The position numbers and the translations under genes were made by a program. DNA of 64,000 nucleotides. Source: the human T2T-CHM13v2.0 reference genome, Homo sapiens. A model generated the notes under the pieces. The model saw only the letters and a program-made list of their open reading frames with translations, made no database searches and had not been told where the DNA came from. The stretch is taken from assembly GCF_009914755.1 (NCBI RefSeq), contig NC_060933.1. The stretch is one strand, 5' to 3'. Shown here one piece after another: positions 545-64,000 of this stretch. How positions within the stretch are numbered: the stretch's first letter is position 1; every line of letters begins with the position of its first letter.

Positions 545-2400
545 GGAACGGAATGGAATGGAATGGAATGGAATGGAACGGAACGGAACGGAATGGAATG
601 GCATGGAATGGAATGGAATGGAATGGAATCAACGCGAGTGCAGGGGAATGGAATGGAATGGAATGGAAAGGAATGCAATGGAATGGAATCTTCCGGAATG
701 GAATGGAATGGAATGGAATGGAATGGAATGCAATGGATTCAACTCGATTGCAATGGAATGGAATAGAATGGAATGGAATGGAATGGAATGGAATTAACCC
801 TAATAGAATGGAATGGAATGGAATGGAATGGAACGGAATAGAACGGAATGGAAAGGAATGGAATGGAATGGAATGGAATGGAATGCTATGGAATGGAATG
901 GAATGGTACGGAATAGAATGGAATGGAACGAATTGGAATGGAATGGAATCGAATGGAATGGAATGGAATGTAATGGAATCAACGCGATTGCAGGGGAATG
1001 TAATAGAACGGAATGCAATGGAATGGAATCATCCGGAATGGAATGGAATGGAATGGAATGGAATGGAATGCAATGGAATGGAATCAACCCGAGTGCAATG
1101 GAATGGAGTGGAATGGAATGGAATGGAATGGAATCAACGCGAGTGCAGGGGAATGGAATGGAATGGAATGGAATGGAATGGAATGGAATGGAATGGAATG
1201 GAATCAACCCGAGTGCAATGGAATGGAGTGGAATGGAATGGAATGGAATGGAACGGAACGGAACGGAACGGAATGGAATGGAATGGAATGGAATGGAATG
1301 GAATGGAATGGAATTGTATGGAATGGAATGGAATGGTACGGAATAGAATGGAATGGAAAGAATTGGAATGGAATGGAATCGAATGGAATGATATGGAATG
1401 GAATGGAATGGAACGGAATGGAATGGAATGGAATGCAATGGAATGGAATCAACCCGAGTACAATGGAATGGAATGGAATGGAATGGAATGGAATGCAATG
1501 TAATGGAATCAACCCGAGTGCAATTGAATGGAATCGAATGGAATGGAATGCAATGGAATGGATTCAACTTGAATGGAATGGAAAGAATGGAATCAACACG
1601 AGTGGAATCGCATGGAATGGAATGGAATGGAATGGAATCAACCCGAGTACAGGAGAATGGAATGGAAGGGAATGCAATGGAATGGAATCATCAGTAATGG
1701 AATGGAAAGGAATGGAATGGAATGGAATGGAATGGAATGAACTCGATTGCAATCGAATGGAATGGAATGGAATTAACCCGAATAGAATGGAATGGAATGG
1801 AATGGAACGGAACGGAATGGAATGGAATGGAATGGAATGGAACGGAACGGAACGGAATGGAATGGCATGGAATGGAATGGAATGGAATGGAATCAACGCG
1901 AGTGCAGGGGAATGGAATGGAATGGAATGGAAAGGAATGCAATGGAATGGAATCTTCTGGAATGGAATGGAATGGAATGGAATGGAATGGAATGGAATGC
2001 AATGGATTCAACTCGATTGCAATGGAATGGAATAGAATGGAATGGAATGGAATGGAATGGAATTAACCCTAATAGAATGGAATGGAATGGAATGGAATGG
2101 AACGGAATAGAACGGAATGGAAAGGAATGGAATGGAATGGAATGGAATGGAATGCTATGGAATGGAATGGAATGGTACGGAATAGAATGGAATGGAACGA
2201 ATTGGAATGGAATGGAATCGAATGGAATGGAATGGAATGTAATGGAATCAACGCGATTGCAGGGGAATGTAATAGAACGGAATGCAATGGAATGGAATCA
2301 TCCGGAATGGAATGGAATTGAATGGAATGGAATGGAATGCAATGGAATGGAATCAACCCGAGTGCAATGGAATGGAGTGGAATGGAATGGAATGGAATGG
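545..2400 (+). repeat. Direct duplication of a ~580-bp segment (~545-1130 and ~1810-2400)
   Basis: Shared private variants attaaccctaatag (793/2062), gctatgg (885/2154), aacgcgattgcagggg and gtaatagaacgg; offset 1264-1269 bp. Ends approximate. Confidence 0.8.
685..699. promoter_or_regulatory. Perfect canonical heat-shock element motif (nGAAnnTTCnnGAAn); first of at least 14 in the left arm
   Basis: Seen: gGAAt-cTTCc-gGAAt. Other left-arm starts: 1949, 4868, 5273, 9977, 11833, 12666, 21296, 21651, 26546, 27279, 29128, 30541, 32068. The motif match is direct; HSF1 binding here is inferred. Confidence 0.55.
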
Positions 2401-3180
2401 AAGAACCCGAATGGAATGGAATGTAATGGAGAGTAAGGGAGTTAAAAAGAATCAATCCGAATGTAATGGAATGGAATGGAACGGAATGGAATGGAATGGA
2501 ATGGAATGGAATGGAATGGAATGGAATCAACCCGAGTGCAATCGAATGGAATCGAATGGAATGGAATGCAATGGAATGGATTCAACTTGAATGGTATGGA
2601 AAGAATGCAATCAACACGAGTGGAATGGCATGGATTGCAATGGAATGGAATGGAATAAACCTGATTACAGGGGAATGGAATGGAATGGAAAGCAATGGAA
2701 TGGCATCATCCGAAATGGAATGGAAAGGAATGGAATGGAATTGAATGGGATGGAATGGCTTCAAACCGAATGGAATAGAAAGGAATGGAATCAACACGAG
2801 TGGAATGGAATGGAATGGAATGGTATGGAATAGAATGGAATGGAACGAAATGGAATGGAATAGAATGCAATGGAATGGAATGGAATTGTTCCGAGGGAAT
2901 AGGAGGGAATGTATTCGAGTGGAATGGAAAGGAATGGAATCAACCAGAGTGGAATGGAAGGGAATGGAATGGAATGGAAACTAATAGAATGGAATCAACC
3001 CGAGTGGAATGGAATGGAAAGGAATGGAATGGAATGGAATGGAATGGAATGGAATGGAATGGAATCAACTCGATTGTAATGGAATGGAATGGAATGGAAT
3101 GGAATGGAATGGAATGGAATGGAATTAACCCGAATACAATGGAATGGAATGCAATGGAACGGAATGGAGTGGAATGGAAT

Positions 3181-6100
3181 GGAATCAACCCGAGTGCAGG
3201 GGAATGGAATGGAATGGAATGCAATGGAATGGAATCATCCGGAATGGAATGGAATGGAATGGAATGCAATCAACCTGATGCAATGGAATGGAGTGGAATG
3301 GAATGGAATGCAATGGAAACATCCCGAATGGAATGGAATGGAATGGAGTGTAAGGGAATTGAATAGAATCAATCCGAATGTAATGGAATGGAATGGAATG
3401 AAATGGAATGGAATGGAATGGAATGGAATCAACCCGAGTGCAATGGAATGGATTCGAATGGAATGGAATGGAATGGAATGGATTCAACAAGAATGGAATG
3501 GAAAGGAATGGAATCAACCCGAGTGTAATGGCATGGAATGGAACGGAATGGAATGGGATGGAATGGAATGGTATGGAATATAATGGAATGGAATGAAATG
3601 GAATGGAATGGAATGGAATGGAATGGAATGGAATGAACCCGTGTGCAATGGAATGGAATGGAATGAAATGGAATGGAATGAAATGGAATGGAATGGAATG
3701 GAATGGAATGGAATGGAATGGAATGGAATGGAATGGAATCAACCCGAGTGCAATGGAATGGAGAGGAAAGGAATGGAATGGAATGGAAACTACCCGAATG
3801 GAATGGAATGTAATTGAGTGTAAGGGAATTGAATAGAATCAATCCGAATGTAATGGAATGGAATGGAACGGAATGGAATGGAATGGAATGGAATGGAATG
3901 GAATGGAATGGAATACAATGGAATTCACCCGAATAGAATGGAATGGAATGGAATGGAAAGGAATGGAAGGGAAGGAAATGGAATGTAATCAACCCGAGTG
4001 CAGGGGAATGGAATGGAATGGAATGCAATGGAATGGAATCATCCGGAATGGAATGGAATGGAATGGAATGGAATGGAATGGAATGGTATCTACCCGAGTG
4101 CAGGGGAATGTAATGGAACGGAATGCAATGGAATGGAATCATCCGGAATGGAATGGAATGGAATGGAATGGAATGGAATCAACCCAAGTGCAATGGAATG
4201 GAGTGGAATGGAATGGAATGGAATGGAACAACCCGAATGGAATGGAATGTAATGGAGAGTAAGGGAGTTGAATAGAATCAATCCGAATGTAATGGAATGG
4301 AATGCAACGGAATAGAATGGAATGGAATGCAATGGAATGGAATGGAATGGAATGGAATGCAATGGAATGGAATGGAATGGAATGGAATGCAATGCCATGG
4401 AATCAACCCGAGTGCAATCGAATGGAATCGAATGGAATGGAATGCAATGGAATGGATTCAACTTGAATGGAATGGAAAGAATGGAATCAACACGAGTGGA
4501 ATGGCATGGATTGGAATGGAATGGAATGGAATCAACCCGAGTACAGGGGAATGGAATGGAATGGAATGAAATGGAATGGAATCATCCATAATGTAATGGA
4601 AAGGAATGGAATGTAATGGAATGGAATGGAATGGAATGGAATGGAATGGAATGGAATCAACTCGATTGCAATTGAATGGAATGGAATGGAATTAACCCGA
4701 ATAGAATGGAATGGAATGGAATGGAATGGAACGGAACGGAATGGAAAGGAATGGAATGGAATGGAACGGATCGGAATGGAATGGAATGGAATGGAATGGA
4801 ATGGAATGGAATGGAATGGAATCAACGCGAGTGCAGGGGAATGGAATGGAATGGAATGCAATGGAATGGAAACTTCCGGAATGGAACGGAATGGAATGGA
4901 ATAGAATGGAATGGGATGGAATGGAATGGAATCAACCCGAGTACAGGGGAATGGAATGGAATGGAATGCAATGGAATCGAATCATCCGTAATGGAATGGA
5001 AAGGAATGGAATGGAATGGAATAGAATGGAATGGAATGGATTGGAATGGAATGGAATCAACTCGATTGCAATCGAATGGAATGGAATGGAATTAACCCGA
5101 ATAGAATGGAATGGAATGGAATGGAACGGAAGGGAACGGAATGGAATGGAATGGAATGGAATGGAATGGAACGGAAAGGAATGGAATGGAATGGAATGGA
5201 ATGGAATGGAATGGAATGGAATGGAATCAACGCGAGTGCAGGGGAATGGAATGGAATGGAATGCAATGGAATGGAATCTTCCGGAATGGAATGGAATGGA
5301 ATGGAATGGAATGGAATGGAATGGAAAGGAAAGGAAGGGAATGGAATGGAATAGAATGGAATAGAATGGAATCAACGCGAGTGCAGGGGAATGGAATGGA
5401 ATGGAATGGAATCGAATGGAATGGAATGGAATTAACCGGAATAGAATGGAATGGAATGGAATGGAACGGAATGGAATGGAATGGAATGGAATGGAATGGA
5501 ATGGAATGGAATGGAATGGAATCAACCCGAGTGTAGGGGAATGGAATGGAATGGAATGCAATGGAATGGAATCATCCGGAATGGAATGGAATGGAATGGA
5601 ATGCAATCAACCTGATGCAATGGAATGGAGTGGAATGGAATGGAATGCAATGGAAACATCCCGAATGGAATGGAATGGAATGGAGTGTAAGGGAATTGAA
5701 TAGAATCAATCCGAATGTAATGGAATGGAATGGAATGAAATGGAATGGAATGGAATGGAATGGAATCAACCCGAGTGCAATGGAATGGATTCGAATGGAA
5801 TGGAATGGAATGGAATGGATTCAACAAGAATGGAATGGAAAGGAATGGAATCAACCCGAGTGTAATGGCATGGAATGGAACGGAATGGAATGGGATGGAA
5901 TGGAATGGTATGGAATATAATGGAATGGAATGAAATGGAATGGAATGGAATGGAATGGAATGGAATGGAATGAACCCGTGTGCAATGGAATGGAATGGAA
6001 TGAAATGGAATGGAATGAAATGGAATGGAATGGAATGGAATGGAATGGAATGGAATGGAATGGAATGGAATCAACCCGAGTGCAAAGGAATGGAGAGGAA

Positions 6101-6690
6101 AGGAATGGAATGGAATGGAAACTACCCGAAGGGAATGGAATGTAATTGAGTGTAAGGGAATTGAATAGAATCAATCCGAATGTAATGGAATGGAATGGAA
6201 CGGAATGGAATGGAATGGAATGGAATGGAATGGAATGGAATGGAATGGAATACAGTGGAATTCACACGAATAGAATGGAATGGAATGGAATGGAAAGGAA
6301 TGGAAGGGAAGGAAATGGAATGTAATCAACCCGAGTGCAGGGGAATGGAATGGAATGGAATGCAATGGAATGGAATCATCCGGAATGGAATGGAATGGAA
6401 TGGAATGGAATGGAATGGAATGGTATCTACCCGAGTGCAGGGGAATGTAATGGAACGGAATGCAATGGAATGGAATCATCCGGAATGGAATGGAATGGAA
6501 TGGAATGGAATGGAATCAACCCAAGTGCAATGGAATGGAGTGGAATGGAATGGAATGGAATGGAACAACCCGAATGGAATGGAATGTAATGGAGAGTAAG
6601 GGAGTTGAATAGAATCAATCCGAATGTAATGGAATGGAATGCAACGGAATAGAATGGAATGGAATGCAATGGAATGGAATGGAATGGAAT
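3181..6690 (+). repeat. Direct duplication of a ~1.17-kb segment (~3181-4350 and ~5518-6690)
   Basis: Offset 2337 bp at caacctgatg (3271/5608), gtatggaatataatgg (3571/5908) and gtatctacccgag (4086/6423); matching ORF-track translations show the same offset. Confidence 0.85.
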
Positions 6691-9600
6691 GCAAAGGAAT
6701 GGAATCAACCCGAGTGGAATGGCATGGAATGGAATGCAATGGATTGGAATGGAATGGAATCAACTCGAGTGGAAGGGAATGGAATGGAATAGAAAGGAAT
6801 GGAATGAAGTCAACTCGAGTGGAATGGAATGGAATGGAATGGATTGGAATGGATTGCAATGGAATGAAATGGAATGGAATGGAATGGAATCAATCATTCC
6901 GAGTGGAGTGGAAGGGAATGTAATGGAGTAGAAAGAAGGGAATGGAATCAACCTGAATGGAATGCAAGGCAATGGAATGGAATGGAAAGGAATGGACTGG
7001 AATCAACTCGATTGCAATGGAATGGAATGGAATGGAATGGAATGGAATGGAATTAACCGGAATAGAATGGAATGGAATGGAATGGAATGGAAGGGAATGG
7101 AATCAACACGAGTGCAGGGGAATGGAATGGAATGGAATGCAATGGAATGGAATCATCCGGAATGGAATGGAATGGAATGGAATCAACTCCATTGCAATGG
7201 AATGGAATGGAATGGAATGGAATGGAATGGAATGGAATCGTTCCGAGTGGAATAGGAGGGAATGTATTCGAGTGGAATGGAAAGGAATGGAATCAACCAG
7301 AGTGGAATGGAAGGGAATGGAATGGAATGGAAACTAATAGAATGGAATCAACTCGAGTGGAATGGAATGGAAAGGACTGGAATGGAATGGAATGGAATGG
7401 AATGGAATGGAATCAACTCGATTGTAATAGAATGGAATGGAATGGAATGGAATGGAATGGAATGGAATTAACCCGAATACAATGGAATGGAATGGAATGG
7501 AACGGAATGGAGTGGAATGGAATGGAATCAACCCGAGTGCAGGGGAATGGAATGGAATGGAATGCAATGGAATGGAATCATCCGGAATGGAATGGAATGG
7601 AATGGAATGCAAAGCAATGGAATCAACTCGATTGCAATGGAATGGAATGGAATGGAAAGGAATAGAATGGAATCAACCCGAGTGTAATGGAATGGAAAGG
7701 ACTGGAATGGAGTGGAATGGAATGGAATGGATTGGAATGGAATCAACTCGATTGGAATGGAATGGAATGGAATGGAATGGAATGGAATGGAATTAACCCG
7801 AATAGAATGGAAAGGAATGGAATGGAACGGAATGGAATGGAATGGAATGGAATGGAATGGAATGGAATGGACTGGAATCATCCGGAACGGAATAGAATGG
7901 AATGGAATGCAATCAGCTCGACTGCAATGTAATGGAATGGAATGGAATGGAATCGAATGGAATGGAATGGAATTAACCGGAATAGAATGGAATGGAATGG
8001 AATGGAATGGAACGGAACGGAATGGAATGGAATGGAATGGAATGGAATGGAATGGAATGGAATCAACCCGAGTGCAGGGGAATGGAATGGAATGGAATGC
8101 AATGGAATGGAATCATCCGGAATGGAATGGAATGGAATGGAATGCAATCAACCTGATGAAATGGAATGGAGTGGAATGGAATGGAATGGAAACATCCCGA
8201 ATGGAATGAAATGTAATGGAGTGTAAGGGAATTGAATAGAATCAATCTGAATGTAACGGAATGGAATGGAATGAAATAGAATGGAATGGAATGGAATGGA
8301 ATCAACCCGAGGGCAATGGAATGGATTCGAATGGAATGGAATGGAATGGAATGGATTCAACAAGAATGGAATGGAAAGGAATGGAATCAACCCGAGTGTA
8401 ATGGCATGGAATGGAACGGAATGGAATGGGATGGAATGGAATGGTACGGAATAGAATGGAATGGAATGAAATGGAATGGAATGGAATGGAATGGAATGGA
8501 ATGGAATGGAATGGAATGAAGCCGTGTGCAATGGAATGGAATGGAGTGGAATGGAATGGATTCAACTCGAATGGAATCCACTCGATTGCAATGGAATGGA
8601 ATGGAATTGAAAGGAATAGAATGGAATCAACCCGAGTGGAATGGAATGGAAAGGACTGGAATGGAGTGGAATGGAATGGAATGGAATTAACCCGAATAGA
8701 ATGAAATGGAACGGAATGGAATGGAATGTAATGGAATGTAATGGAATGGAATCAACCCGAGTGCAGGGGAATGGAATGGAATGGAATGCAATGGAATGGA
8801 ATCATCCGGAATGGAATGGAATGGAATGGAATGGAATGGAATGGAATGGAATTGAATGGAATGGAATCAACTCGATTTCAATGGAATGGAATGGAATAGA
8901 ATGGAACGGAATTAACACGAATAGAATGGAATGGAATGGAATGGAATGGAACAGAAAGGAATGGAATGGAATGGAATGGAATCAACACAAGTGCAGGGGA
9001 ATGGAGTGGAATGGAATTCAATGGAATGGAATCATCCGGAATGGAATGGAATGGAATGGAATGGAATGGAATTGAATGGAATGGAATGGAATCAACCCGA
9101 GTGCAATGGAATGGAGAGGAATGGAATGGAATGGAATGGAAACTACACGAATGGAATGGAATGTAATGGAGTGTACGGGAATTGAATAGAATGAATCCGA
9201 ATGGAATGGAATGGAATGGAATGGAAAGGAATGGAATGGAATGGAATGGAATGGAATGGAATGGAATGGAATCAACTCGATTGTAATTGAATGGAATGGA
9301 ATGGAATTAACCCGAATAGAATGGAATGGAATGGAATGGAATGGAACGGAACGGAATGGAAAGGAATGGAATGGAATGGAATGGAAACTACCCGAATGGA
9401 ATGGAATGTAATGGAGTGTAAGGGAATTGAATAGAATCAATCCGAATGTAAAGGAATGGAATGGAACGGAATTGAATGGAATGGAATGGAATGGAATGGA
9501 ATGGAATGGAATGCAATGGAATGGAATCAACCCGAGTGCAATCGAATGGAATCGAATGCAATGGAATGGATTCAACTTGAATGGAATGGAATGAATGGAA

Positions 9601-12600
9601 TCAACACGAGTGGAAGGGCACGGATTGGAATGCAATGGAATGGAATCAACCCGAGTACAGGGGAATGGAATGGAATGGAATGCAATGGAATGGAATCATC
9701 CGTAATGGAATTTAAAGGAATGGAATGGAATGGAATGGAATGGAATGGAATGGAATGGAATGGAATGGAATCAACACGATTGGAATCGAATGGAATGGAA
9801 TGGAATTAACCCGAATAGAATGGAATGGAATGGAATGGATCGAAACGGAATGGAATGGAATGGAATGGAATGGAATGGAACGGAACGGAATGGAATGGAA
9901 TGGAATGGAATGGAATGGAAAGGAATGGAATCAACGCGAGTGCAGGGGAATGGAATGTAATGGAATGCAATGGAATGGAATCTTCCGGAATGGAATGGAA
10001 TGTAATGGAATCAACCCGAGTGCAATGGAATGGAGTGGAATGGAATGGAATGGAATGGAACAACCCGAATGGAATCGAATGTAATGGAGAGTAAGGGAAT
10101 TGAATAGAATCAATCCGAATGTAATGGAATGGAATGGAACGGAATGGAATGGAATGGAATGGAATGGAATGGAATGGAATGCAATGGAATGGAATCAACC
10201 CGAGTGCAATCGAATGGAATGGAATGCAATGGAATGCAATGGAATGGATTGAACTAGAATGGAATGGAAAGAATGGAATCAACAAGAGTGGAAGGGCATG
10301 GATTGGAATGGAATGGAATGGAATCAACCCGAGTACAGGGGAATGGAGTGGAATGTAATGCAATGGAATGGAATCATCCGTAATGGAATGGAAAGGAATG
10401 GAATGGAATGGAATGGAATGGAATGGAATGGAATGGAAAAAATTGGTTGCAATCGAATGGAATTGAATGGAATTAACCCGAATAGAATGGAATGGAATGG
10501 AATGGAACGGAACTGAATGGAATGGAATGGAATGGAATGGAATGGAATGGAATGGAAAGGAAAGGAAGGGAATGGAATGGAATAGAGTGGAATAGAATGG
10601 AATCAACGCGAGTGCAGGGGAATGGAATGGAATGGAATGGAATCGAATGGAATGGAATGGAATTAACCGGAATAGAATGGAATGGAATGGAATGGAACGG
10701 AATGGAATGGAATGGAATGGAATGGAATGGAATGGAATGGAATCAACCCGAGTGCAGGGGAATGGAATGGAATGGAATGCAATGGAATGGAATCATCCGG
10801 AATGGAATGGAATGGAATGGAATGGAATGGAATGGAATGGAATGAAATGGAATGGAATGGAATGGAATGGAATCAACCCGAGTGCAATGGAATGGATTCG
10901 AATGGAATGGAATGGAATGGAATGGATTCAAAAAGAATGGAATGGAAAGGAATGGAATCAACCCGAGTGTAATGGCATGGAATGGAACGGAATGGAATGG
11001 GATGGAATGGAATGGTATGGAATATAATGGAATGGAATGGAATGGAATGGAATGGAATGGAATGGAATGGAATGGAATGAACCCGTGTGCAATGGAATGG
11101 AATGGAATGAAATGGAATGGAATGGAATGGAATGGAATGGAATGAAATGGAATGCAATGGAATGGAATGCAATGGAATGGAATCAACCCGAGTGAAATGG
11201 AATGGAGAGGAATGGAATGGAATGGAATGGAAACTACCCGAATGGAATGGAATGTAATGGAGTGTAAGGGAATTGAATAGAATCAATCCGAATGTAATGG
11301 AATGGAATGGAACGGAATGGAATGGAATGGAATGGAATGGAATGGAATGGAATGGAATGCAATCAACCCGAGTGCAATCGAATGGAATCGAAACGAATGC
11401 AATGCAATGGAATGGATTCAACTTGAATGGAATGGAAAGAATGGAATCAACACGAGTGGAATGGCATGGATTGGAATGGAATGGAATCGAATCAACCCGA
11501 GTACAGGGGAACGGAATGGAATGGAATGCAATGGAATGGAATCATCCGTAATGGAATGGAAAGGAATGGAATGGAATGGAATGGAATGGAATGGAATGGA
11601 ATGGAATGGAATCAACTCGATTGAAATCGAATGGAATGGAATGGAATTAACCCGAATAGAATGGAATGGAATGGAATGGAACGGAACGGAACGGAATGGA
11701 AGGGAATGGAATGGAATGGAATGGAATGGAATGGAACGGAAAGGAATGGAATGAAATGGAATGGAGTGGAATGGAATGGAATGGAATCAACGCGAGTGCA
11801 GGGGAATGGAATGGAATGGAATGCAATGGAATGGAATCTTCCGGAATGGAATGGAATGGAATGGAATGGAATGGAATAAACCCGAGTGCAATGGAATGGA
11901 GTGGAATGGAATGGAATGGAATGGAACAACCCGAATGGAATGGAATGTAACGGAGAGTAAGGGAGTTGAATAGAATCAATCCGAATGTAATGGAATGGAA
12001 TGGAACGGAATGGAATTGAATGGAATGGGATGGAATGCAATGGAATGGAATCAACCCGAGTGCAATGGAATGGAGAGGAATGGAATGGAATGGAATGGAA
12101 ACTACCCGAATGGAATGGAATGTAATGGAGTGTAAGGGAATTGAATAGAATCAATCCGAATGTAATGGAATGGAATGGAACGGAATGGAATGGAATGGAA
12201 TGGAATGGAATGCAATGGAATGGAATCAACCCGAGTGCAATCGAATGGAATCGAATGGAATGGAATGCAATGGAATGGATTCAACTTGAATGGAATGGAA
12301 AGAATGGAATCAACACGAGTGGAATGGCATGGATTGGAATGGAATGGAATGGAATCAACCCGAGTACAGGGGAATGGAATGGAATGGAATGCAATGGAAT
12401 GGAATCATCCGTAATGGAATGGAAAGGAATGGAATGGAATGGAATCAACTCGATTGCAATCGAATGGAATGGAATGGAATTAACCCGAATAGAATGGAAT
12501 GGAATGGAATGGAACGGAACGGAACGGAATGGAATGGAATGGAAGGGAATAGAATGGAACGGAAAGGAATGGAATGGAATGGAATGGAATGGAATGGAAT

Positions 12601-50250: not shown

Positions 50251-53143
50251 TCCATTCCATTCCATTCCATTCCATTCCTTTCCATTCCATTACGGATGAT
50301 TCTATTCCATTGCATTCCATTCCATTCCATTCCGTTGCATTCCATTCCATTACATTCGGATTGATTCTATTGAACTCCCTTACTCTCCATTACATTCCAT
50401 TCCATTCGGGTTTTTCCATTCCATTCCATTCCATTCCACTCCATTCAATTGCACTCGGGTTGATTCCATTCCATTCCATTCCATTCCATTCCATTCCGGA
50501 TGATTCCATTCCATTGCATTCCATTCCATTCCATTCCCCTGCACTCGCGTTGATTCCATTCCATTCCATTCCATTCCTTTCAATTCCATTCCATTACAAT
50601 TCGTTCCATTCCATTCTATTCCGTACCATTCCATTCCATTCCATACCATTCCATTGCATTCCATTCCATTCCGTTCCATTCCGTTCCATTCCTTTCCATT
50701 CCATTCTATTCGAATTAATTCCATTCAATTCCATTCCATTCCATTCTATTCCATTCCATTGCAATCGAGTTGAATCCATTGCATTTCATTCCATTCCATT
50801 CCATTCCATTCCATTCCGGAAGATTCCATTCCATTGCATTCCATTCCATTCCATTCTCCTGCACTCGCGTTGATTCCATTCCATTCCATTCCATTCCATT
50901 CCATTCCAATCGAGTTGATTCCATTCCATTCCATTCCATTCCATTCCACTCCATTCCAGTCCTTTCCATTCCATTACACTCGGGTTGATTCCATTCTATT
51001 CCTTTCCATTCCATTCCATTCCATTGCAATCGAGTTGATTCCATTGCTTTGCATTCCATTCCATTCCATTCCATTCCGGATGATTCCATTCCATTGCATT
51101 CCATTCCATTCCATTCCCCTGCAATCGTGTTGATTCCATTCCATTCCACTCCATTCCGTTGCATTCCATTCCATTCCATTGTATTCGGGTTAATTCCATT
51201 CCATTCCATTCCATTCCATTCCATTACAATCGAGTTGATTCCATTCCATTCAATTCCATTCCATTCCATTCCATTCCAGTCCTTTCCATTCCATTCCACT
51301 CGGGTTGATTCCATTCTATTAGTTTCCATTCCATTCCATTCCCTTCCATTCCACTCTGGTTGATTCCATTCCTTTCCATTCCACTCGAATACATTCCCTC
51401 CTATTCCACTCGGAACGATTCCTTTCCATTCTATTCCATTCCATTCCATTCCATTCCAGTTCGTTCCATTCCATTCTATTTCGTACCATTCCATTCCATT
51501 CCATTCCTTTCCATTCCATTCCTTTCCACTCGTGTTGATTCCATTCCTTTCCATTCCATTCGGTTTGAAGGCATTCCATTCCATTCAATTCCATTCCATT
51601 CCATTCAATTCTATTCCATTCTATTCCATTCCATTGCAATCGAGTTGAATCCATTGCCTTTCATTCCATTCCATTCCATTCCATTCCATTCCGGAAGCTT
51701 CCATTCCATTCCATTCCATTCCATTCCATTCCATTCCCCTGCACTCGCGTTGATTCCATTGCATTCCATTCCATTCCATTCCGTTCCGTTCCATTCCATT
51801 CCATTCCATTCCATTCCATTCCGTTCCGTTCCATTCCATTCCATTCCATTCTAATCGGGTTAATTCCATTCCATTCCATTCGATTGCCATCGAGTTGATT
51901 CCATTCCATTCCATTCCATTCCATTCCATTCCATTCCATTCCATTCCTTTCCATTCCATTACGGATGACTCCATTCCATTGCTTTCCATTCCATTCCATT
52001 CCCCTGTACTCGGGTTGATTCCATTCCATTCCATTCCACTCCATTCGGTTCCGTTGCATTCCATTCTATTGCATTCCATTCTATTCGGGTTAATTCCATT
52101 CCATTCTATTCCATTCCATTCCATTCCATTCCATTGCAATGGAGTTTATTCCATTCCATTCCATTCCATTCCGGATGATTCCATTCCATTGCATTCCATT
52201 CCATTCCATTCCCCTGCACTCGTGTTGATTCCATTCCCTTCCATTCCATTCCATTCCGTTCCATTCCATTCCATTCCATTCTATTCCGGTTAATTCCATT
52301 CCATTCCATTCCATTCCATTCCATTCCATTGCAATCGAGTTGATTCCATTCCATTCCTTTCCATTCCATTCCATTGCCTTGCATTCCACTCGGGTTGATT
52401 CCATTCCCTTCTTTCCACTCCATTACTTTCCATTCCATTCCACTCGGAATGATTGATTCCATTCCATTCCATTCCATTTCATTCCATTGCAATCCATTCC
52501 AATCCATTCCATTCCATTCTATTCCACTCGAGTTGACTTCATTCCATTCCTTTCCATTCCATTCCATTCCTTTCCACTCGAGTTGATTCCATTACATTCC
52601 AATCCATTGCAATCCATTCCATGCCATTCCACTCGGGTTGATTCCATTCCTTTGCATTCCATTCCATTCCATTCCATTGCATTCCATTCCATTCCATTCC
52701 GTTGCATTCGATTCCATTACATTCGGATTGATTCTATTCAACTCCCTTACTCTCCATTACATTCCATTCCATTCGGGTTGTTCCATTCCATTCCATTCCA
52801 TTCCACTCCATTCCATTGCACTCGGGTTGATTCCATTCCATTCCATTCCATTCCATTCCATTCCGGATGATTCCATTCCATTGCATTCCGTTCCATTACA
52901 TTCCCCTGCACTCGGGTTGATACCATTCCATTCCATTCCATTCCATTCCATTCCATTCCATTCCGGATGATTCCATTCCATTGCATTCCATTCCATTCCA
53001 TTCCCCTGCACTCGGGTTGATTACATTCCATTTCCTTCCCTTCCATTCCTTTCCATTCCATTCCATTCCATTCTATTCGGGTGAATTCCATTCCATTCCA
53101 TTCCATTCCATTCCATTCCATTCCATTCCTTTCCATTCCATTA

Positions 53144-53535
53144 CGGATGATTCCATTCCATTGCATTCCATTCCATTCCATTCCGTTGCATTCCATTCCA
53201 TTACATTCGGATTGATTCTATTCAACTCCCTTACTCTCCATTACATTCCATTCCATTCGGGTTTTTCCATTCCATTCCATTCCATTCCACTCCATTCAAT
53301 TGCACTCGGGTTGATTCCATTCCATTCCATTCCATTCCATTCCATTCCATTCCGGATGATTCCATTCCATTGCATTCCATTCCATTCCATTCCGTTGCAT
53401 TCCATTCCATTACATTCGGATTGATTCTATTCAACTCCCTTACTCTCCATTACATTCCATTCCATTCGGGTTTTTCCATTCCATTCCATTCCATTCCACT
53501 CCATTCAATTGCACTCGGGTTGATTCCATTCCATT
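53144..53535 (-). repeat. 209-bp tandem duplication
   Basis: cggatgattcc at 53144 and 53353, each followed by ccgttgcatt, cgggtttttcc and ccattcaattgcactcggg. Confidence 0.82.
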
Positions 53536-56500
53536 CCACTCCATTCCGTTCCATTCCATTCCATTCCATTGTATGCGGGTTAATTCCATTCCATTCCATT
53601 CCATTCCATTCCATTCCATTCCATTCCATTCCATTACAATCGAGTTGATTCCATTCCATTCCATTCCATTCCATTCCATTCCATTCCAGTCCTTTCCATT
53701 CCATTCCACTCGGGTTGATTCCATTCTATTAGTTTCCATTCCATTCCATTCCCTTCCATTCCACTCTGGTTGATTCCATTCCTTTCCATTCCACTCGAAT
53801 ACATTCCCTCCTATTCCACTCGGAACGATTCCATTTCATTCCATTCCATTCCATTCCATTCCATTCCAGTTCGTTCCATTCCATTCTATTCCGTACCATT
53901 CCATTCCATTCCTTTCCTTTCCATTCCATTCTTTTCCACTCGTGTTAATTCCATTCCTTTCCATTCCATTCGGTTTGAAGGCATTCCATTCCATTCAATT
54001 CCATTCCATTCCATTCTATTCAATTCCATTCTATTCCATTCCATTGCAATCGAGTTGAATCCATTGCCTTTCATTCCATTCCATTCCATTCCATTCCATT
54101 CCGGAAGATTCCATTCCAATCCATTCCATTCCATTCCATTCCCCTGCACTCGCGTTGATTCCATTCCATTCCATTCCATTCCATTCCGTTCCGTTCCATT
54201 CCATTCCATTCCATTCCATTCCATTCCGTTCCGTTCCATTCCATTCCATTCTATTCGGGTTAATTCCATTCCATTCCATTCGATTGCCATCGAGTTGATT
54301 CCATTCCATTCCATTCCATTCCATTCCATTCCATTCCATTCCATTCCTTTCCATTCCTTTCCATTCCATTACGGATGACTCCATTCCATTGCATTCCATT
54401 CCATTCCATTCCCCTGCACTCGTGTTGATTCCATTCCATTCCATTCCATTCCATTCCATTCCATTCCGTTCCATTCCATTCCATTCCATTCTATTCCGGT
54501 TAATTCCATTCCATTCCATTCCATTCCATTCCATTCCATTGCAATCGAGTTGTTTCCATTCCATTCCTTTCCATTCCATTCCATTGCCTTGCATTCCACT
54601 CGGGTTGATTCCATTCCCTTCTTTCCACTCCATTACATTCCCTTCCATTCCACTCGGAATGATTGATTCCATTGCATTCCATTCCATTACATTCCATTGC
54701 AATCCATTCCAATCCATTCCATTCCATTCCATTCCACTCGAGTTGACTTCATTCCATTCCTTTCCATTCCATTCCATTCCTTTCCACTCGAGTTGATTCC
54801 ATTCCATTCCAATCCATTGCATTCCATTCCATGCCATTCCACTCGGGTTGATTCCTTTCCTTTGCATTCCATTCCATTCCATTCCATTGCATTCCATTCC
54901 ATTCCATTCCGTTGCATTCCATTCCATTACATTCGGATTGATTCTATTCAACTCCCTTACTCTCCATTACATTCTATTCCATTCGGGTTGTTCCATTCCA
55001 TTCCATTCCATTCCATTCCATTCAATTCCATTCCATTACAATTCGTTCCATTCCATTCTATTCCGTACCATTCCATTCCATTCCATACCATTCCATTCCA
55101 TTCCATTCCGTTCCATTCCGTTCCATTCCATTCCATTCCATTCTATTCGGTTTAATTCCGTTCCATTCCATTCCATCCCATTCTATTACATTCCATTGCA
55201 ATCGAGTTGAATCCATTGCATTTCATTCCATTCCATTCCATTCCATTCCATTCCGGAAGATTCTATTCCATTGCATTCCATTCCATTCCATTCCCCTGCA
55301 CTCGCGTTGATTCCATTCCATTCCATTCCATTCCATTCCATTCCATTCCATTCCATTCCGTTCCGTTCCATTCCATTCCATTCCATTCCATTCCGTTCCG
55401 TTCCGTTCCATTCCATTCTATTCCATTCTATTCGGGTTAATTCCATTCCATTCCATTCGATTGCAATCGTGTTGATTCCATTCCATTCCATTCCATTCCA
55501 TTCCATTCCATTCCATTCCATTCGATTCCTTTCCATTCCATTACGGATGATTCCATTCCATTGCATTCCATTCCATTCCATTCCCCTGTACTCGGGTTGA
55601 TTCCATTCCATTGCATTCCAATCCATGCCCTTCCACTCGTGTTGATTCCATTCTTTCCATTCCATTCAAGTTGAATCCATTCCATTGCATTCCATTCCAT
55701 TCGATTCCATTCGATTGCACTCGGGTTGATTCCATTCCATTGCATTGCATTCCATTCCATTCCGTTCCGTTCCATTCCATTCCATTACATTCGGATAGAT
55801 TCTATTCAATTCCCTTACACTCCATTACATTCCATTCCATTCGGGTAGTTTCCATTCCATTCCATTCCATTCCTCTCCATTCCATTGCAATCGGGTTGAT
55901 TCCATTCCATTGCATTCCATTCCATTCCATTCAATTCCAGTCCGTTCCATTCCATTCCATTACATTCGGATTGATTCTATTCAACTCCCTTACTCTCCAT
56001 TACATTCTATTCCATTCGGGTTGTTCCATTCCATTCCATTCCGTTCCACTCCATTCCATTGCACTCGGGTTTATTCCATTCCATTCCATTCCATTCCATT
56101 CCATTCCATTCCATTCCGGACGATTCCATTCCATTGCATTCCATTCCATTCCATTCCAATCGAGTTGATTCCATTCCATTCCATTCCATTCCATTCCACT
56201 CCATTCCAGTCCTTTCCATTCCATTCCACTCGGGTTGATTCGAATGTATTCCTTTCCATTCCATTCCATTCCATTGCAATCGAGTTGATTCCATTGCTTA
56301 GCATTCCATTCCATTCCATTCCATTCCGGATGATTCCATTCCATTGCATTCCATTCCATTCCATTCCCCTGCACTCGGGTTGATTCCATTCCATTCCACT
56401 GCATTCCGTTACATTCCATTCCATTCCATTGTATTCGGGTTAATTCCATTCCATTCCATTCAATTATATTCCGTTCCATTCCATTCCATTCCATTCCATT

Positions 56501-59500
56501 ACAAACGAGTTGATTCCATTCCATTGCATTCCATTCCATTCCATTCCATTCCATTCCAGTCCTTTCCATTCCATTCCACTCGGGTTGATTCCATTCCATT
56601 AGTTTCCATTCCATTCCATTCCCTTCCATTCCACTCTGGTTGATTCCATTCCTTTCCATTCCACTCGTATACATTCCCTCCTATTCCACTCGGAACGATT
56701 CCATTCCATTCCATTCCATTCCATTCCATTCCGTTCCATTCCATTCCATTCCAGTTCATTCCATTCCGTTCTATTCCGTACCATTCCATTCCATTCCATT
56801 CCTTTCCATTCCATTCCTTTCCACTCGTGTTGATTCCATTCCTTTCCATTCCATTCGGTTTGAAGGCATTCCATTCCATTCAATTCCATTCCATTCCATT
56901 CCATTCCATTCCATTCTATTCCATTCCATTGCAATCGAGTTGAATCCATTGCCTTTCATTCCATTCCATTCCATTCCATTCCGGAATATTCCATTCCATT
57001 CCATTCCATTCCTTTCCATTCCATTCCGTTCCGTTCCATTCCATTCCATTCCATTCCATTCGGGTTAATTCCATTCCATTCCATTCCATTGCCATCGAGT
57101 TGATTCCATTCCATTCCATTCCATTCCATTCCATTCCATTCCATTCCTTTCCATTCCATTACGGATGACTCCATTCCATTGCATTCCATTCCATTCCATT
57201 CCCCTGTACTCGGGTTGATTCCATTCCTTTCCATTCTACTCCATTCGGTTCTGTTGCATTCCATTCTATTGCATTCCATCCATTCGGGTTAATTCCATTC
57301 CATTCTATTCCATTCCATTCCATTCCATTCCATTGCAATGGAGTTGATTCCATTCCATTCCATTCCATTCCGGATGATTCCATTCCATTGCATTCCATTC
57401 CATTCCATTCCCCTGCACTCGTGTTGATTCCATTCCCTTCCATTCCATTCCATTGCGTTCCATTCCATTCCATTCCATTCTATTCCGGTTAATTCCATTC
57501 CATTCTATTCCATTCCATTCCATTCCGTTGCAATCGAGTTGATTCCATTCCATTCCTTTCCATTCCATTCCATTGCCTTGCATTCCACTCGGGTTGATTC
57601 CATTGCCTTCTTTCCACTCCATTTCATTCCCTTCCATGATTGATTCCATTCCATTCCATTCCATTTCATTCCATTGCAATCCATTCCAATCCATTCCATT
57701 CCATTCCATTCCACTCGAGTTGACTTCATTCCATTCCTTTCCATTCCATTCCATTCTTTTCCACTCGAGTTGATTCCATTCCTTTCCAATCCATTGCATT
57801 CCATTCCATGCCATTCCACTCGGGTTGATTCCATTCCTTTGCATTCCATTCCATTCCATTCCATTCCATTCCGTTGCATTCCATTCCATTACATTCGGAT
57901 TGATTCTATTCAACTCCCTTACTCTCCATTACATTCCATTCCATTCGGGTTTTTCCATTCCATTCCATTCCATTCCACTCCATTCAATTGCACTCGGGTT
58001 GATTCCATTCCATTCCACTCCATTCCGTTCCATTCCATTCCATTCCATTGTATGCGGGTTAATTCCATTCCATTCCATTCCATTCCATTCCATTCCATTC
58101 CATTCCATTCCATTACAATCGAGTTGATTCCATTCCATTCCATTCCATTCCATTCCATTCCATTCCAGTCCTTTCCATTCCATTCCACTCGGGTTGATTC
58201 CATTCTATTAGTTTCCATTCCATTCCATTCCCTTCCATTCCACTCTGGTTGATTCCATTCCTTTCCATTCCACTCGAATACATTCCCTCCTATTCCACTC
58301 GGAACGATTCCATTTCATTCCATTCCATTCCATTCCATTCCAGTTCGTTCCATTCCATTCTATTCCGTACCATTCCATTCCATTCCTTTCCTTTCCATTC
58401 CATTCTTTTCCACTCGTGTTGATTCCATTGCTTTCCATTCCATTCGGTTTGAAGGCATTCCATTCCATTCAATTCCATTCCATTCCATTCTATTCAATTC
58501 CATTCTATTCCATTCCATTGCAATCGAGTTGAATCCATTGCCTTTCATTCCATTCCATTCCATTCCATTCCATTCCGGAAGATTCCATTCCAAACCATTC
58601 CATTCCATTCCATTCCCCTGCACTCGCGTTGATTCCATTCCATTCCATTCCATTCCATTCCGTTCCGTTCCATTCCATTCCATTCCATTCCATTCCATTC
58701 CGTTCCGTTCCATTCCATTCCATTCTATTCGGGTTAATTCCATTCCATTCCATTCGATTGTCATCGAGTTGATTCCATTCCATTCCATTCCATTCCATTC
58801 CATTCCATTCCATTCCTTTCCATTCCTTTCCATTCCATTACGGATGACTCCATTCCATTGCATTCCATTCCATTCCATTCCCCTGTACTCGGGTTGATTC
58901 CATTCCATTCCATTCCACTCCATTCGGTTCCGTTGCATTCCATTCTATTGCATTCCATTCTATTCGGGTTAATTCCATTCCATTCTATGCCATTCCATTC
59001 CATTCCATTCCATTGCAATGGAGTTGATTCCATTCCATTCCATTCCATTCCGGATGATTCCATTCCATTGCATTCCATTCCATTCCATTCCCCTGCACTC
59101 GTGTTGATTCCATTCCATTCCATTCCATTCCATTCCATTCCATTCCGTTCCATTCCATTCCATTCCGTTCTATTCCGGTTAATTCCATTCCATTCCATTC
59201 CATTCCATTCCATTCCATTGCAATCGAGTTGTTTCCATTCCATTCCTTTCCATTCCATTCCATTGCCTTGCATTCCACTCGGGTTGATTCCATTCCCTTC
59301 TTTCCACTCCATTACATTCCCTTCCATTCCACTCGGAATGATTGATTCCATTGCATTCCATTCCATTACATTCCATTGCAATCCATTCCAATCCATTCCA
59401 TTCCATTCCATTCCACTCGAGTTGACTTCATTCCATTCCTTTCCATTCCATTCCATTCCTTTCCACTCGAGTTGATTCCATTCCATTCCAATCCATTGCA

Positions 59501-60680
59501 TTCCATTCCATGCCATTCCACTCGGGTTGATTCCATTCCTTTGCATTCCATTCCATTCCATTCCATTGCATTCCATTCCATTCCATTCCGTTGCATTCCA
59601 TTCCATTACATTCGGATTGATTCTATTCAACTCCCTTACTCTCCATTACTTTCCATTCCATTCGGGTTGTTCCATTCCATTCCATTCCATTCCATTCCAT
59701 TCCATTGCACTCGGGTTGATTCCATTCCATTCCATTCCATTCCATTCCATTCCGGATGATTGCATTCCATTGCATTCCGTTCCATTACATTCCCCTGCAC
59801 TCGCGTTGATTCCATTCCATTCCATTCCATTCCATTCAATTCCATTCCATTACAATTCGTTCCATTCCATTCTATTCCGTACCATTCCATTCCATACCAT
59901 TCCATTCCATTCCATTCCGTTCCATTCCGTTCCATTCCATTCCATTCCATTCTATTCGGTTTAATTCCGTTCCATTCCATTCCATCCCATTCTATTACAT
60001 TCCATTGCAATCGAGTTGAATCCATTGCATTTCATTCCATTCCATTCCATTCCATTCCATTCCGGAAGATTCCATTGCATTGCATTCCATTCCATTCCAT
60101 TCCCCTGCACTCGCGTTGATTCCATTCCATTCCATTCCATTCCATTCCATTCCATTCCATTCCGTTCCGTTCCGTTCCGTTCCATTCCATTCCATTCCAT
60201 TCCATTCCGTTCCGTTCCGTTCCATTCCATTCTATTCCATTCTATTCGGGTTAATTCCATTCCATTCCATTCGATTGCAATCGTGTTGATTCCATTCCAT
60301 TCCATTCCATTCCATTCCACTCCATTCCAGTCCTTTCCATTCCATTCCACTCGGGTTGATTCCAATGTATTCCTTTCCATTCCATTCCATTCCATTGCAA
60401 TCGAGTTGATTCCATTGCTTAGCATTCCATTCCATTCCATTCCATTCCGGATGATTCCATTCCATTGCATTTCATTCCTTTCCATTCCGGATGATTCCAT
60501 TCCATTGCATTCCATTCCATTCCATTCCCCTGCACTCGGGTTGATTCCATTCCATTCCACTGCATTCCGTTACATTCCATTCCATTCCATTGTATTCGGG
60601 TTAATTCCATTCCATTCCATTCAATTATATTCCGTTCCATTCCATTCCATTCCATTCCATTACAAACGAGTTGATTCCAT
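53380..60680 (-). repeat. Direct duplication of ~3 kb with internal indels (~53380-56520 and ~57860-60680)
   Basis: gtatgcgggt 53571/58050 (offset 4479); gcaatcgagttgtttcc 54541/59220 (offset 4679); ccattgcttagcatt, caattatatt and acaaacgagt at ~56290-56510 and ~60410-60670. Ends approximate. Confidence 0.75.
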
Positions 60681-62170
60681 TCCATTCCATTCCATTCCAT
60701 TCCATTCCATTCCATTCCATTCCATTGTACTCGGGTTGATTCCATTCCATTGCATTCCATTCCATTCCATTCCATTCCATTCCATTCCATTCCATTCCAT
60801 TCCGGATGATTCCATTCCATTGCATTCCGTTCCATTACGTTCCCCTGCACTCGGGTTGATTCCATTCCACTCCTTTCCATTCCATTCAATTCCATTCCAT
60901 TACAATTCGTTCCATTCCATTCTATTCCGTACCATTACATTGCATTCCATACCATTCCATTCCATTCCCTTCCATTCCATTCCATTCCGTTCCATTCCAT
61001 TCCATTCCATTCCATTCCATTCCATTCCATTCTATTCGGATTAATTCCATTCCATTCCATTCCATTCCATTCTATTCCATTCCATTGCAATCGAGTTGAA
61101 TCCATTGCATTTCATTCCATTCCATTCCATTCCGGAAGATTCCATTCCATTGCATTCCATTCCATTCCATTCCCCTGCACTCGCGTTGATTCCATTCCAT
61201 TCCATTCCATTCCATTCCGTTCCATTCCGTTCCATTCCATTCCATTCCATTCCATTCCGTTCCGTTCCATTCCATTCCATTCCATTCCATTCTATTCGGG
61301 TTAATTCCATTCCATTCCATTCGATTGCAATCGAGTTGATTCCATTCCATTCCATTCCATTCCATTCCATTCCATTCCATTCCATTCCATTCCTTTCCAT
61401 TCCATTACGGATGATTCCATTCCATTGCATTCCATTCCATTCCATTCCCCTGTACTCGGGTTGATTCCATTCCATTGCATTCCAATCCATGCCCTTCCAC
61501 TCGTGTTGATTCCATTCTTTCCATTCCATTCAAGTTGAATCCATTCCATTGCATTCCATTCCATTGGATTCCATTCGATTGCACTCGGGTTGATTCCATT
61601 CCATTGCATTCCATTGCATTCCATTCCATTCCATTCCATTCCATTCCGTTCCTTTCCATTCCATTACATTCGTATTGATTCTATTCAATTCCCTTACACT
61701 CCATTCCATTCCATTCCATTCGGGTAGTTTCCATTCCATTCCATTCCATTCCTCTCCATTCCATTGCACTCGGGTTGATTCCAATCAATTGCATTCCATT
61801 CCATTCCATTCCATTCCATTCCTTTCCATTCCATTACGGATGATTCCATTCCATTGCATTCCATTCCATTCCATTCCCCTGTACTCGTGTTGATTCCATT
61901 CCATTCCATTCCAATCCATGCCATTCCACTCATGTTGATTCCATTCTTTCCATTCCATTCAAGTTGAATCCATTCCATTGCATTCCATTCCTTTCGATTC
62001 CATTCTATTGCACTCGGGTTGATTCAATTCCATTGCATTCCATTCCATTCCATTCCATTCCATTCCATTCCATTCCGTTCCGTTCCATTCCATTCCATTC
62101 CATTCTATTCGGGTTAATTCCATTCCATTCCATTCCATTCCATTCCAATCGAGTTGATTCCATTCCATTC

Positions 62171-62750
62171 CATTCCATTCCATTCCACTCCATTCCAGTC
62201 CTTTCCATTCCATTCCACTCGGGTTGATTCCAATGCATTCCTTTCCATTCCATTCCATTACATTGCAATCGAGTTGATTCCATTGCTTTGCATTCCATTC
62301 CATTCCATTCCATTCCGGATGATTCCATTCCATTGCATTCCATTCCATTCCATTCCATTCCATTCCATTCCGTTCCATTCCATTCCATTACATTCGGATT
62401 GATACTATTCAATTCCCTTACACTCCATTACATTCCATTCCATTCGGGTAGTTTCCATTACATTCCATTCCATTCCACTCCATTCCAGTCCTTTCCATTC
62501 CATTCCACTCGGGTTGATTCCAATGCATTCCTTTCCATTCCATTCCATTACATTGCAATCGAGTTGATTCCATTGCTTTGCATTCCATTCCATTTCATTC
62601 CATTCCGGATGATTCCATTCCATTGCATTCCATTCCATTCCATTCCATTCCATTCCATTCCGTTCCATTCCATTCCATTACATTCGGATTGATACTATTC
62701 AATTCCCTTACACTCCATTACATTCCATTCCATTCGGGTAGTTTCCATTC
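62171..62750 (-). repeat. 290-bp tandem duplication
   Basis: ccaatgcattcctttcc 62230/62520 and gatactattc 62401/62691; constant 290-bp offset. Confidence 0.88.
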
Positions 62751-64000
62751 CATTCCATTCCATTCCTCTCCATTCCATTGCACTCGGGTTGATTCCATTC
62801 CATTGCATTCCATTCCATTCCATTCAATTCCATTCCGTTCCATTCCATTGCATTACATTTGGATTGATTCTATTCAACTCCCTTACTCTCCATTACATTC
62901 CATTCCATTCGGGTTGTTCCATTCCATTCAATTCCATTCCACTCCATTCCATTGCACTCGGGTTTATTCCATTCCATTCCATTCCATTCCATTACATTCC
63001 GGAAGATTCCATTCCATTGCATTCCATTCCATTCCATTCCCCTGCACTCGCGTTGATTCCATTCCATTCCATTCCATTCCATTCCTTTCCGTTCCATTCC
63101 ATTCCATTCCATTCCATTCCAATCCATTCCATTCCGTTCCGTTCCGTTCCATTCCATTCCATTCCATTCTATTCGGGTTAATTCCATTCCATTCCATTCG
63201 ATTGCAATCGAGTTGATTCCATTCCATTCTATTCCATTCCATTCCATTCCATTCCATTCCATTCCTTTCCATTCCAATCCATTACGGATGTTTCCATTCC
63301 ATTGCATTCCATTCAATTCCATTCCCCTGTACTCGGGTTGATTCCATTGCATTCCATTCCAATCCATGCCATTCCACTCGTGTTGATTCCATTCTTTCCA
63401 TTCCATTCAAGTTGAATCCATTCCATTGCATTCCATTCCATTCCATTCCCCTGCAGTCGGGATGATTCCATTCCATTCCATTCCATTCCATTCCATTCCA
63501 TTCCATTCCGTTCCATTCCATTCCATTCCATTCCATTCTATTCGGGTTAATTCCATTCCATTCCATTCCATTCCATTCCAATCGAGTTGATTCCATTCCA
63601 TTCCATTCCATTCCATTCCACTCCATTCCAGTCCTTTCCCTTCCATTCCACTCGGGTTGATTCCAATGTATTCCTTTCCATTCCATTCCATTCCATTGCA
63701 ATCGAGTTGATTCCATTGCTTTGCATTCCATTCCATTCCATTCCATTCCGGATGATTCCATTCCATTGCATTCCATTCCATTCCATTCCCCTGCACTCGG
63801 GTTGATTCCATTCCATTCCACTCCATTCCGTTCCATTCCATTCCATTCCATTGTATTCGGGTTAATTCCATTCCATTCCATTCCATTCCATTCCATTCCA
63901 TTCCATTCCATTACAATCGAGTTGATTCCATTCCATTCCATTCCATTCCAGTCCTTTCCATTCAATTCCACTCGGGTTGATTCCATTCTATTAGTTTCCA

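What the first reader, a model, noticed from the sequence alone, without database searches (positions are those of the whole stretch)
685..63010. A recurrent single-base variant creates at least 35 perfect canonical heat-shock elements in the satellite
Established: HSF1 trimers prefer alternating nGAAn units (nGAAnnTTCnnGAAn); HSF1 binds Sat III, drives SatIII RNA and nucleates nuclear stress bodies. Seen: plain (GGAAT)n gives only head-to-tail nGAAn units, but the landmark ggaatcAtccggaat has a common sister ggaatcTtccggaat that is an exact three-unit HSE. I count 14 left and 21 right, about one per 1.8 kb, nearly always just after the caacgcgagtgcagggg landmark. Several mutated copies keep the motif (1949, 4868, 21296, 51688, 55250, 56978); a few lose it (~16830, ~17100, ~33620). 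Gaps exist at 12681-21295 and 21666-26545. Inference: these sites could be high-affinity HSF1 seeds in a weak-site lattice, and their density could help explain why HSat3 arrays differ in stress response. I cannot check whether this has been reported.
Basis: partly seen in the sequence, partly recalled or inferred. Interest (0 to 1): 0.72.

Follow-up and report, generated by a model that had tools for sequence, protein, structure and literature searches.

The report
Heat-shock switches in chromosome 9 satellite
The giant repeat block on human chromosome 9 carries a textbook binding sequence for the heat-shock regulator HSF1 about every 2 kb (12,700 exact copies genome-wide, estimated to lie almost all there), likely the spots where HSF1 first docks after heat shock; the general idea is already in print, but I found no paper naming this exact sequence.

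Summary
Observation confirmed: 35 perfect three-unit HSEs (14 on +, 21 on -, across a strand switch at ~32,714; shuffles give 3.2). The exact 15-mer has 12,700 copies in the genome, none listed on chr1-8; 20 samples across the chr9 HSat3 array extrapolate to ~12,600, so it is essentially a chr9 marker. It is mostly amplified, not recurrent: 9,216 of 12,700 copies follow one landmark allele, 542 the other. It meets the canonical HSE definition and the flanking-base preferences from HSF1 structures. In small samples only chr9 (0.55/kb) and DYZ1 on Y (0.5/kb, different sequences) had perfect HSEs; these are the two known primary stress-body loci. Against: binding was not testable here, one-mismatch sites outnumber perfect ones 2.4:1, HSF1's domain also binds plain SatIII, a published JASPAR scan scores chr15 and Y above chr9, and I found no selection signal. 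The concept is published: HSF1 ChIP follows motif density in HSat3 (Franklin), perfect HSEs in DYZ1 (Penin), unpublished HSEs in 9q12 (2022 review). New here: the site's identity, count, origin and a built-in allelic series that makes a 2002 puzzle testable on existing ChIP reads.

The parts
1..32714 (+). HSat3 block, G-rich strand on +. Holds 14 perfect three-unit HSEs (15 bp each) starting at 685, 1949, 4868, 5273, 9977, 11833, 12666, 21296, 21651, 26546, 27279, 29128, 30541, 32068
32715..64000 (-). HSat3 block, G-rich strand on -. Holds 21 perfect three-unit HSEs (15 bp each) whose lowest + coordinate is 34444, 36317, 37737, 38806, 40276, 41505, 42965, 44143, 45786, 46500, 47083, 49974, 50813, 51688, 54098, 55250, 56978, 58572, 60059, 61129, 62996
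630..699 (+). Example of the carrier module: CAACGCG-type landmark, plain pentamer linker ending in a GCAAT unit and one GGAAT, then the HSE (685-699). The commonest form is 60 bp (e.g. 5228-5287)
685..699 (+). Type copy of the HSE: GGAAT-CTTCC-GGAAT. A purine precedes each GAA, and the tail-to-tail spacer is the pyrimidine-purine step C-G, a CpG
   Evidence: sequence; preferences from PMC8379338
1025..1039 (+). Type copy of the ATC sister (one mismatch in the middle unit, all three key G:C pairs kept). 60 exact copies in the window, 20,563 in the genome
16834..16848 (+). Broken copy (first unit lost)
17104..17118 (+). Broken copy (first and third units lost)
33616..33630 (-). Broken copy (first unit lost)
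32703..32724 (.). Strand-switch (inversion) junction with the G-rich strands converging. It falls inside a landmark read as an inverted repeat with 9-bp arms (GGAATCAAC / GTTGATTCC) around 4 bases

Best explanation
The window is part of the chromosome 9 HSat3 array, where one ~60-bp repeat module carries a perfect three-unit heat-shock element, amplified to 12,700 exact copies (estimated almost all on chr9), which are likely the preferred landing sites for activated HSF1 trimers. Shown: the sequence, the count, the module linkage and the fit to the HSE definition. Inferred: the site arose by an A-to-T change in the older ATC landmark and spread by ordinary satellite amplification, without needing selection. 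Inferred: on heat shock a trimer binds each site head-to-head then tail-to-tail as in the solved structures; further trimers load on the in-register GAA that follows all 35 sites, on the ~1.3-1.5 per kb one-mismatch sites and on the step-type pentamer lattice; the megabase density then nucleates the 9q12 stress body and recruits Pol II. The element does not explain why the G-rich strand is the one transcribed.
For: 35 sites vs 3.2 expected. 12,700 exact copies, none listed on C1-C8 on either strand. 4.55 +/- 0.71 per 10 kb in 20 chr9 samples x 27.6 Mb = ~12,600. 9,216 copies follow the G-landmark and 542 the C-landmark; in samples 113 of 146 G-landmark plain modules vs 1 of 277 C-landmark modules carry TTC. 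Three alternating units, a pyrimidine-purine tail-to-tail spacer and a purine before each GAA are the preferences in PMC8379338. The site is 11 of 13 identical to the HSP70 HSE probe printed in PMC2173303 (compared by eye). HSF1 prefers canonical over discontinuous HSEs (PMC4552642 passage). HSF1 ChIP follows motif density within HSat3 (Franklin). chr9 and Y, the two primary nSB loci, were the only 2 of 6 sampled satellite sets with perfect HSEs.
Against: No binding data could be examined here. One-mismatch sites that keep all three key G:C pairs are 259 vs 110 perfect in 200 kb of chr9, and substitutions outside the G are tolerated. HSF1 shifted the 158-bp chr9 clone pHuR98, whose units the authors judged non-canonical, though at >12.5 ng vs >3 ng for an HSE and only in slower-migrating forms. 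The HSF1 DNA-binding domain has been co-crystallised with head-to-tail SatIII (cited). Franklin's JASPAR HSF1 enrichment has a median of 10.0 over 235 chr9 blocks, 16.1 over 43 Y blocks, 18.6 for chr15 A5 and 47.2/29.0 for two chr1 A1 blocks. HT1080 cells form bodies on Y and not on chr9. Non-chr9 samples are single 4-kb stretches, and 5 of 10 missed HSat2/3. No HSat3A1 array was sampled.
Confidence: 0.65

Rival explanations
1. Mass action on weaker sites: HSF1 accumulates on 9q12 mainly through the far more numerous one-mismatch sites and the step-type GGAAT lattice. The perfect sites bind well but add little to the total.
For: One-mismatch sites at 1.3-1.45/kb vs 0.55/kb perfect; 4,210 step-type triplets in the window. 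Binding to pHuR98 and a head-to-tail SatIII co-crystal. Step-type HSEs give low-level activation. 27.6 Mb is the largest HSat3 array in CHM13.
Against: Lattice-rich chr20 and chr21 samples (423 and 426 GGAAT per 4 kb) belong to arrays not described as primary sites in the papers read. ChIP signal is uneven and follows motif density. HSF1 prefers canonical HSEs.
Confidence: 0.2
2. Chromatin state decides: methylation, nucleosomes or cofactors determine which HSat3 array HSF1 reaches, and the motif is permissive but not limiting. The site is a neutral by-product of array amplification.
For: HT1080 cells use Y and not chr9, although 9q12 still binds HSF1 in vitro or on overexpression. The spacer is a CpG. 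No selection signal: distinct substitutions core 5 vs spacer 6, p=0.12, and the A positions rarely change anywhere in the lattice. SatIII RNA after osmotic stress does not need HSF1.
Against: Recombinant HSF1 targets 9qh on chromosome spreads, including protease-treated ones (figure legend), which points to DNA sequence. Neutral origin and present-day binding are compatible.
Confidence: 0.1
3. HSF1 recognises a secondary structure or special conformation of chr9 SatIII rather than canonical elements (the 2002 alternative).
For: Only slower-migrating forms of pHuR98 were shifted.
Against: That proposal rested on the lack of canonical HSEs in a 158-bp clone; the array holds ~13,000-14,000 of them. 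Cold HSE competes the binding away.
Confidence: 0.05

Closest known systems
HSF1 motif-dense sub-regions of HSat3 (Franklin et al., bioRxiv 10.1101/2024.10.22.616524, Fig. 2b text and supplementary table)
   Same: HSF1 motifs are unevenly spread in HSat3; heat-shock HSF1 ChIP follows their density; per-array motif scores for 489 blocks, including 235 on chr9.
   Different: It is a PWM scan; in the sections read it names no site or module, does not separate perfect from near matches, and ranks chr15 and Y above chr9. Figures were not seen.
Perfect HSEs in the Y-chromosome DYZ1 repeat (Penin et al. 2021, PMC7889540)
   Same: Canonical HSEs interspersed in SatIII, ChIP-supported; HSE number proposed to explain chr9 vs Y preference.
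   Different: Different sequences and array. They report four per 3,564-bp unit; my strict pattern found 2 in one 4-kb stretch. chr9 was not counted there.
Putative HSEs in 9q12 (2022 review PMC9032817, 'our unpublished observation')
   Same: The same locus and the same claim in outline.
   Different: No sequence or count; the review states the number of sites is unknown.
Canonical three-unit HSE of HSP70-type promoters
   Same: nGAAnnTTCnnGAAn with favoured flanking bases; 11 of 13 identical to the HSP70 probe in PMC2173303.
   Different: Sits in pericentric heterochromatin in >10,000 copies, only three perfect units, no known core promoter beside it.

Membership tests
Canonical (perfect-type) HSE | At least three contiguous alternating nGAAn units | tested here: met
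   35 in the window, none with four units; definition from PMC8379338
Canonical (perfect-type) HSE | Pyrimidine-purine step between TTC and GAA; purine before each GAA | tested here: met
   Spacer is C-G and G precedes all three units in the exact 15-mer (29 of 35 copies); preferences
Canonical (perfect-type) HSE | Bound by HSF1 trimers in vitro and in heat-shocked cells | not testable with these tools
   Array-level binding is published; no site-level data seen
Canonical (perfect-type) HSE | Confers heat-inducible transcription | not testable with these tools
   HSat3 RNA arises along the whole chr9 locus after heat shock (PMC11622622 passage); start sites not mapped to this motif in the papers read
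chr9 HSat3B5 array | GGAAT-based satellite in the large chr9 pericentric array with many strand switches | tested here: met
   Place given by the hub; strand switch at ~32,714; >200 inversion breakpoints described. The subfamily label rests on position, not on a k-mer classifier
chr9 HSat3B5 array | Motif confined to this array | tested here: inconclusive
   None listed on C1-C8; extrapolation 12,600 +/- 2,000 vs 12,700 total; C10-C24 checked only by ten 4-kb stretches, 0 exact copies
Selected functional element | Core bases more conserved than neutral expectation | tested here: inconclusive
   By copies 9 core vs 13 spacer changes (p=0.012), by distinct substitutions 5 vs 6 (p=0.12); copies are not independent and lattice A positions rarely change anyway

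The most novel reading that the evidence does not exclude
One point change in a 60-bp module, amplified to ~13,000 copies, is the sequence reason why chromosome 9 is the primary site of human nuclear stress bodies. DYZ1 on Y gained different perfect HSEs independently, and arrays without them (chr15, 20, 21) are only secondary sites. TTC-module copy number would then be a heritable quantitative determinant of stress-body size and HSF1 titration between people.
Probability: 0.3. Interest if true: 0.72.

Novelty: new member of a known kind. Interest (0 to 1): 0.45.

Why it matters
Jolly et al. 2002 left open how HSF1 picks 9qh, noting that its nGAAn units were not organised like a canonical HSE, and a 2022 review still calls the number of sites unknown. 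This gives a sequence, a count (~13,000-14,000 perfect sites) and a natural allelic series in the same context (perfect, one mismatch, two mismatches). That allows a mapping-free k-mer test on existing ChIP reads, and it supplies chr9-specific probes or dCas9 targets. It refines a published idea rather than overturning one.

Tried and rejected
(1) 'Recurrent mutation': rejected for the bulk, since the site is tied to one landmark allele. A minor second origin on a CC-spacer background is listed on chr5 (6 places) and chr9. (2) Purifying selection on the motif: not supported. (3) Longer, four-unit HSEs: none in the window. (4) The idea that chr9 is uniquely HSE-rich: rejected, DYZ1 has a similar density of different sites; a pattern that excludes chr9-type spacers gives 9,727 forward vs 551 reverse hits, and one DYZ1-type motif 4,800 vs 305, which fits a one-directional array, though the contig was not listed. 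(5) Sampling other arrays from recalled coordinates: 5 of 10 stretches were not HSat2/3 and were dropped from the per-kb comparison. (6) Literature: searching the exact 15-mer and its reverse complement gave 0 occurrences in the 5 papers listed of 6 found, all matched by a shorter third term. Searches found no paper naming the site. PMC13634412, PMC13705371 and bioRxiv 10.64898/2026.02.12.705659 (passages only) had nothing on it. Two look-ups for a 2005 SatIII RNA paper failed. Subscription papers (Eymery 2010, Neudegger 2016, the 2025 Cell nSB paper; recalled or seen only as citations) were not read and may bear on novelty.

Full report
Observation. The pattern GAAnnTTCnnGAA occurs 35 times in the window, 14 on + and 21 on -, against a shuffle mean of 3.24 (0 of 100 shuffles reach 35). 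The G-rich strand switches at about 32,714, so all 35 read the same way on the G-rich strand. 29 of 35 are the exact 15-mer. 32 of 35 follow a CAACGCG-type landmark. There is no four-unit site, but all 35 have an in-register GAA one unit further downstream, which is a gap-type extension.

Genome-wide count and place. The exact 15-mer has 12,700 matches in G000 (6,460 + 6,240; reversed-pattern control 0 and 3). Listings run by contig (starts on C1), and for both orientations the first listed match is on C9, so none is listed on C1-C8. Twenty 10-kb samples from 49.1 to 76.5 Mb of chr9 hold 4.55 +/- 0.71 exact copies each (range 0-10; 3 of 20 have none). Over the 27.6-Mb array (bioRxiv 10.1101/2021.07.12.452052, passages) that gives about 12,600 +/- 2,000. 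The ATC sister behaves the same way: 20,563 in the genome vs 7.45 per 10 kb, or about 20,600. Any-spacer HSEs followed by two pentamers number 13,334, with 6 listed on C1-C8; the chr9 extrapolation is 13,900. Confinement to chr9 is therefore an estimate with about 16% error; C10-C24 were not enumerated.

Origin. In the window plus the 20 samples, 113 of 146 G-landmark modules with a plain linker carry TTC, against 1 of 277 C-landmark modules. Genome-wide, 9,216 of the 12,700 exact sites lie 28-58 bases behind CAACGCG and 542 behind CAACCCG, although the C form is the commoner landmark. So the copies are mostly one module amplified. A small second group on a CC-spacer background is listed on chr5 and chr9. 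That ATC is ancestral is inferred from its higher number and from a related ATC site in the DYZ1 sample. Retention of the motif in mutated copies is not evidence of selection. By copies the split is 9 core to 13 spacer changes (p=0.012), but by distinct substitutions it is 5 to 6 (p=0.12). Two spacer bases are a CpG, and in 1,531 plain lattice units the two A positions change only 30 times against 72, 153 and 91 at the other three.

Is it an HSE? By PMC8379338 (passages and section 11) a typical HSE has at least three alternating units, a pyrimidine-purine step in the tail-to-tail pair, and preferably a purine before GAA. The 15-mer meets all three. It is 11 of 13 identical to the HSP70 probe printed in PMC2173303 (by eye). 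PMC4552642 (passages) states that HSF1 prefers canonical HSEs, that substitutions outside the G are tolerated, and that step-type elements give low activation. Binding itself could not be tested here.

Other arrays. Of ten 4-kb stretches picked from recalled coordinates, five were HSat2/3 and five were dropped. Perfect HSEs per kb: chr9 0.55 (110 in 200 kb, and 35 in 64 kb), chrY DYZ1-like 0.5 (2 in 4 kb, other sequences), and 0 for chr15, chr20, chr21 and chr16 HSat2. One-mismatch sites that keep the three key pairs: 1.29-1.45, 2.25, 0.5, 0, 0.5 and 0. A pattern that excludes chr9-type spacers has 9,727 forward and 551 reverse matches, which fits Y but was not placed. chr9 and Y are the two described primary HSF1 targets (PMC7889540 and PMC10813801, passages). 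These samples are small, and no HSat3A1 block was seen.

Mechanism. Most likely (0.65), activated trimers land preferentially on the perfect sites, spread to neighbouring imperfect and step-type sites, and at about 2 perfect-or-near sites per kb over 27 Mb nucleate the 9q12 body. Every step after the sequence is inferred. The element gives no direction, so the G-rich strand bias of SatIII RNA (PMC2241877, passages) needs another cause. The rivals are mass action on weaker sites (0.2), chromatin state as the limiting factor (0.1) and structure recognition (0.05). Results against my reading: one-mismatch sites outnumber perfect ones 259 to 110. HSF1 bound pHuR98, judged non-canonical by its authors (Fig. 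4A not seen, so I cannot say whether the clone holds the site). A head-to-tail SatIII co-crystal exists (seen only as a citation). HT1080 cells ignore chr9. Franklin's table gives chr9 a median JASPAR HSF1 enrichment of 10.0 (n=235) against 16.1 for Y (n=43), 18.6 for chr15 A5 and 47.2/29.0 for chr1 A1 (columns matched by hand). Those scores come from 50-bp pieces scored with a weight matrix and count near matches. The HSF4 row of the same table puts chr9 near 24 and Y and chr15 A5 near 4-5 (read by eye).

What is known. Franklin et al. (sections 5 and 13, passages, two supplementary tables; figures not seen) report that HSF1 motifs lie in sub-regions of HSat3 and that heat-shock ChIP follows them. 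Penin et al. found four perfect HSEs per DYZ1 unit and proposed that HSE number explains chr9 vs Y. A 2022 review mentions putative HSEs in 9q12 as unpublished and says their number is unknown. Jolly et al. 2002 (passages and the end of results, discussion and methods) said the organisation of nGAAn units argued against canonical recognition. I found no paper naming this 15-mer (open-access full text only). Franklin's supplementary PDF and subscription papers were not read and could name it.

Verdict. It is a new member of a known kind: the chr9 counterpart of the DYZ1 HSEs, anticipated in print but apparently not specified. Its value is that it turns a loose claim into a cheap, sharp test. 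Interest 0.45.

Noticed in passing
window 32703-32724: The inversion junction falls inside a landmark that reads as a 9-bp-arm inverted repeat, with the G-rich strands converging. Read-through would give C-rich or fold-back RNA. Inversions in this array are described; whether junctions generally use this landmark was not checked.
   Followed up: partly
L019 (G000:C9:75800001-75810000), about 6073-6097: A second strand switch, in the divergent orientation (C-rich on + first, then G-rich); this 10 kb has no perfect HSE.
   Followed up: no
L001, L011, L018, L019: chr9 stretches with 0-1 perfect HSEs per 10 kb; L011 and L018 are instead rich in the ATC sister (13 and 16). Natural low-density controls inside the array.
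   Followed up: partly
G000:C5:49.72-49.91 Mb: Six listed perfect HSEs in the small chr5 HSat3 array, five with a CC spacer, so a C precedes the third GAA, which is less favoured.
   Followed up: no
window and L001-L020: A large sub-lineage of the ATC site has also lost the third GAA (80 of 246 C-landmark sites; 25 in the window by a looser pattern), giving a three-step natural series in one context.
   Followed up: partly
window 37481-43024 (- strand): Landmark variants alternate in a repeated order (e.g. 37796, 40335, 43024 share the same linker changes), suggesting a local ~2.5-2.7-kb tandem duplication.
   Followed up: no
Franklin supplementary table, HSF4 row: HSF4 motif enrichment is about 5-fold higher on chr9 blocks than on Y or chr15 A5 (by eye), the opposite of the HSF1 row; HSF4 on 9q12 may merit a look.
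   Followed up: no
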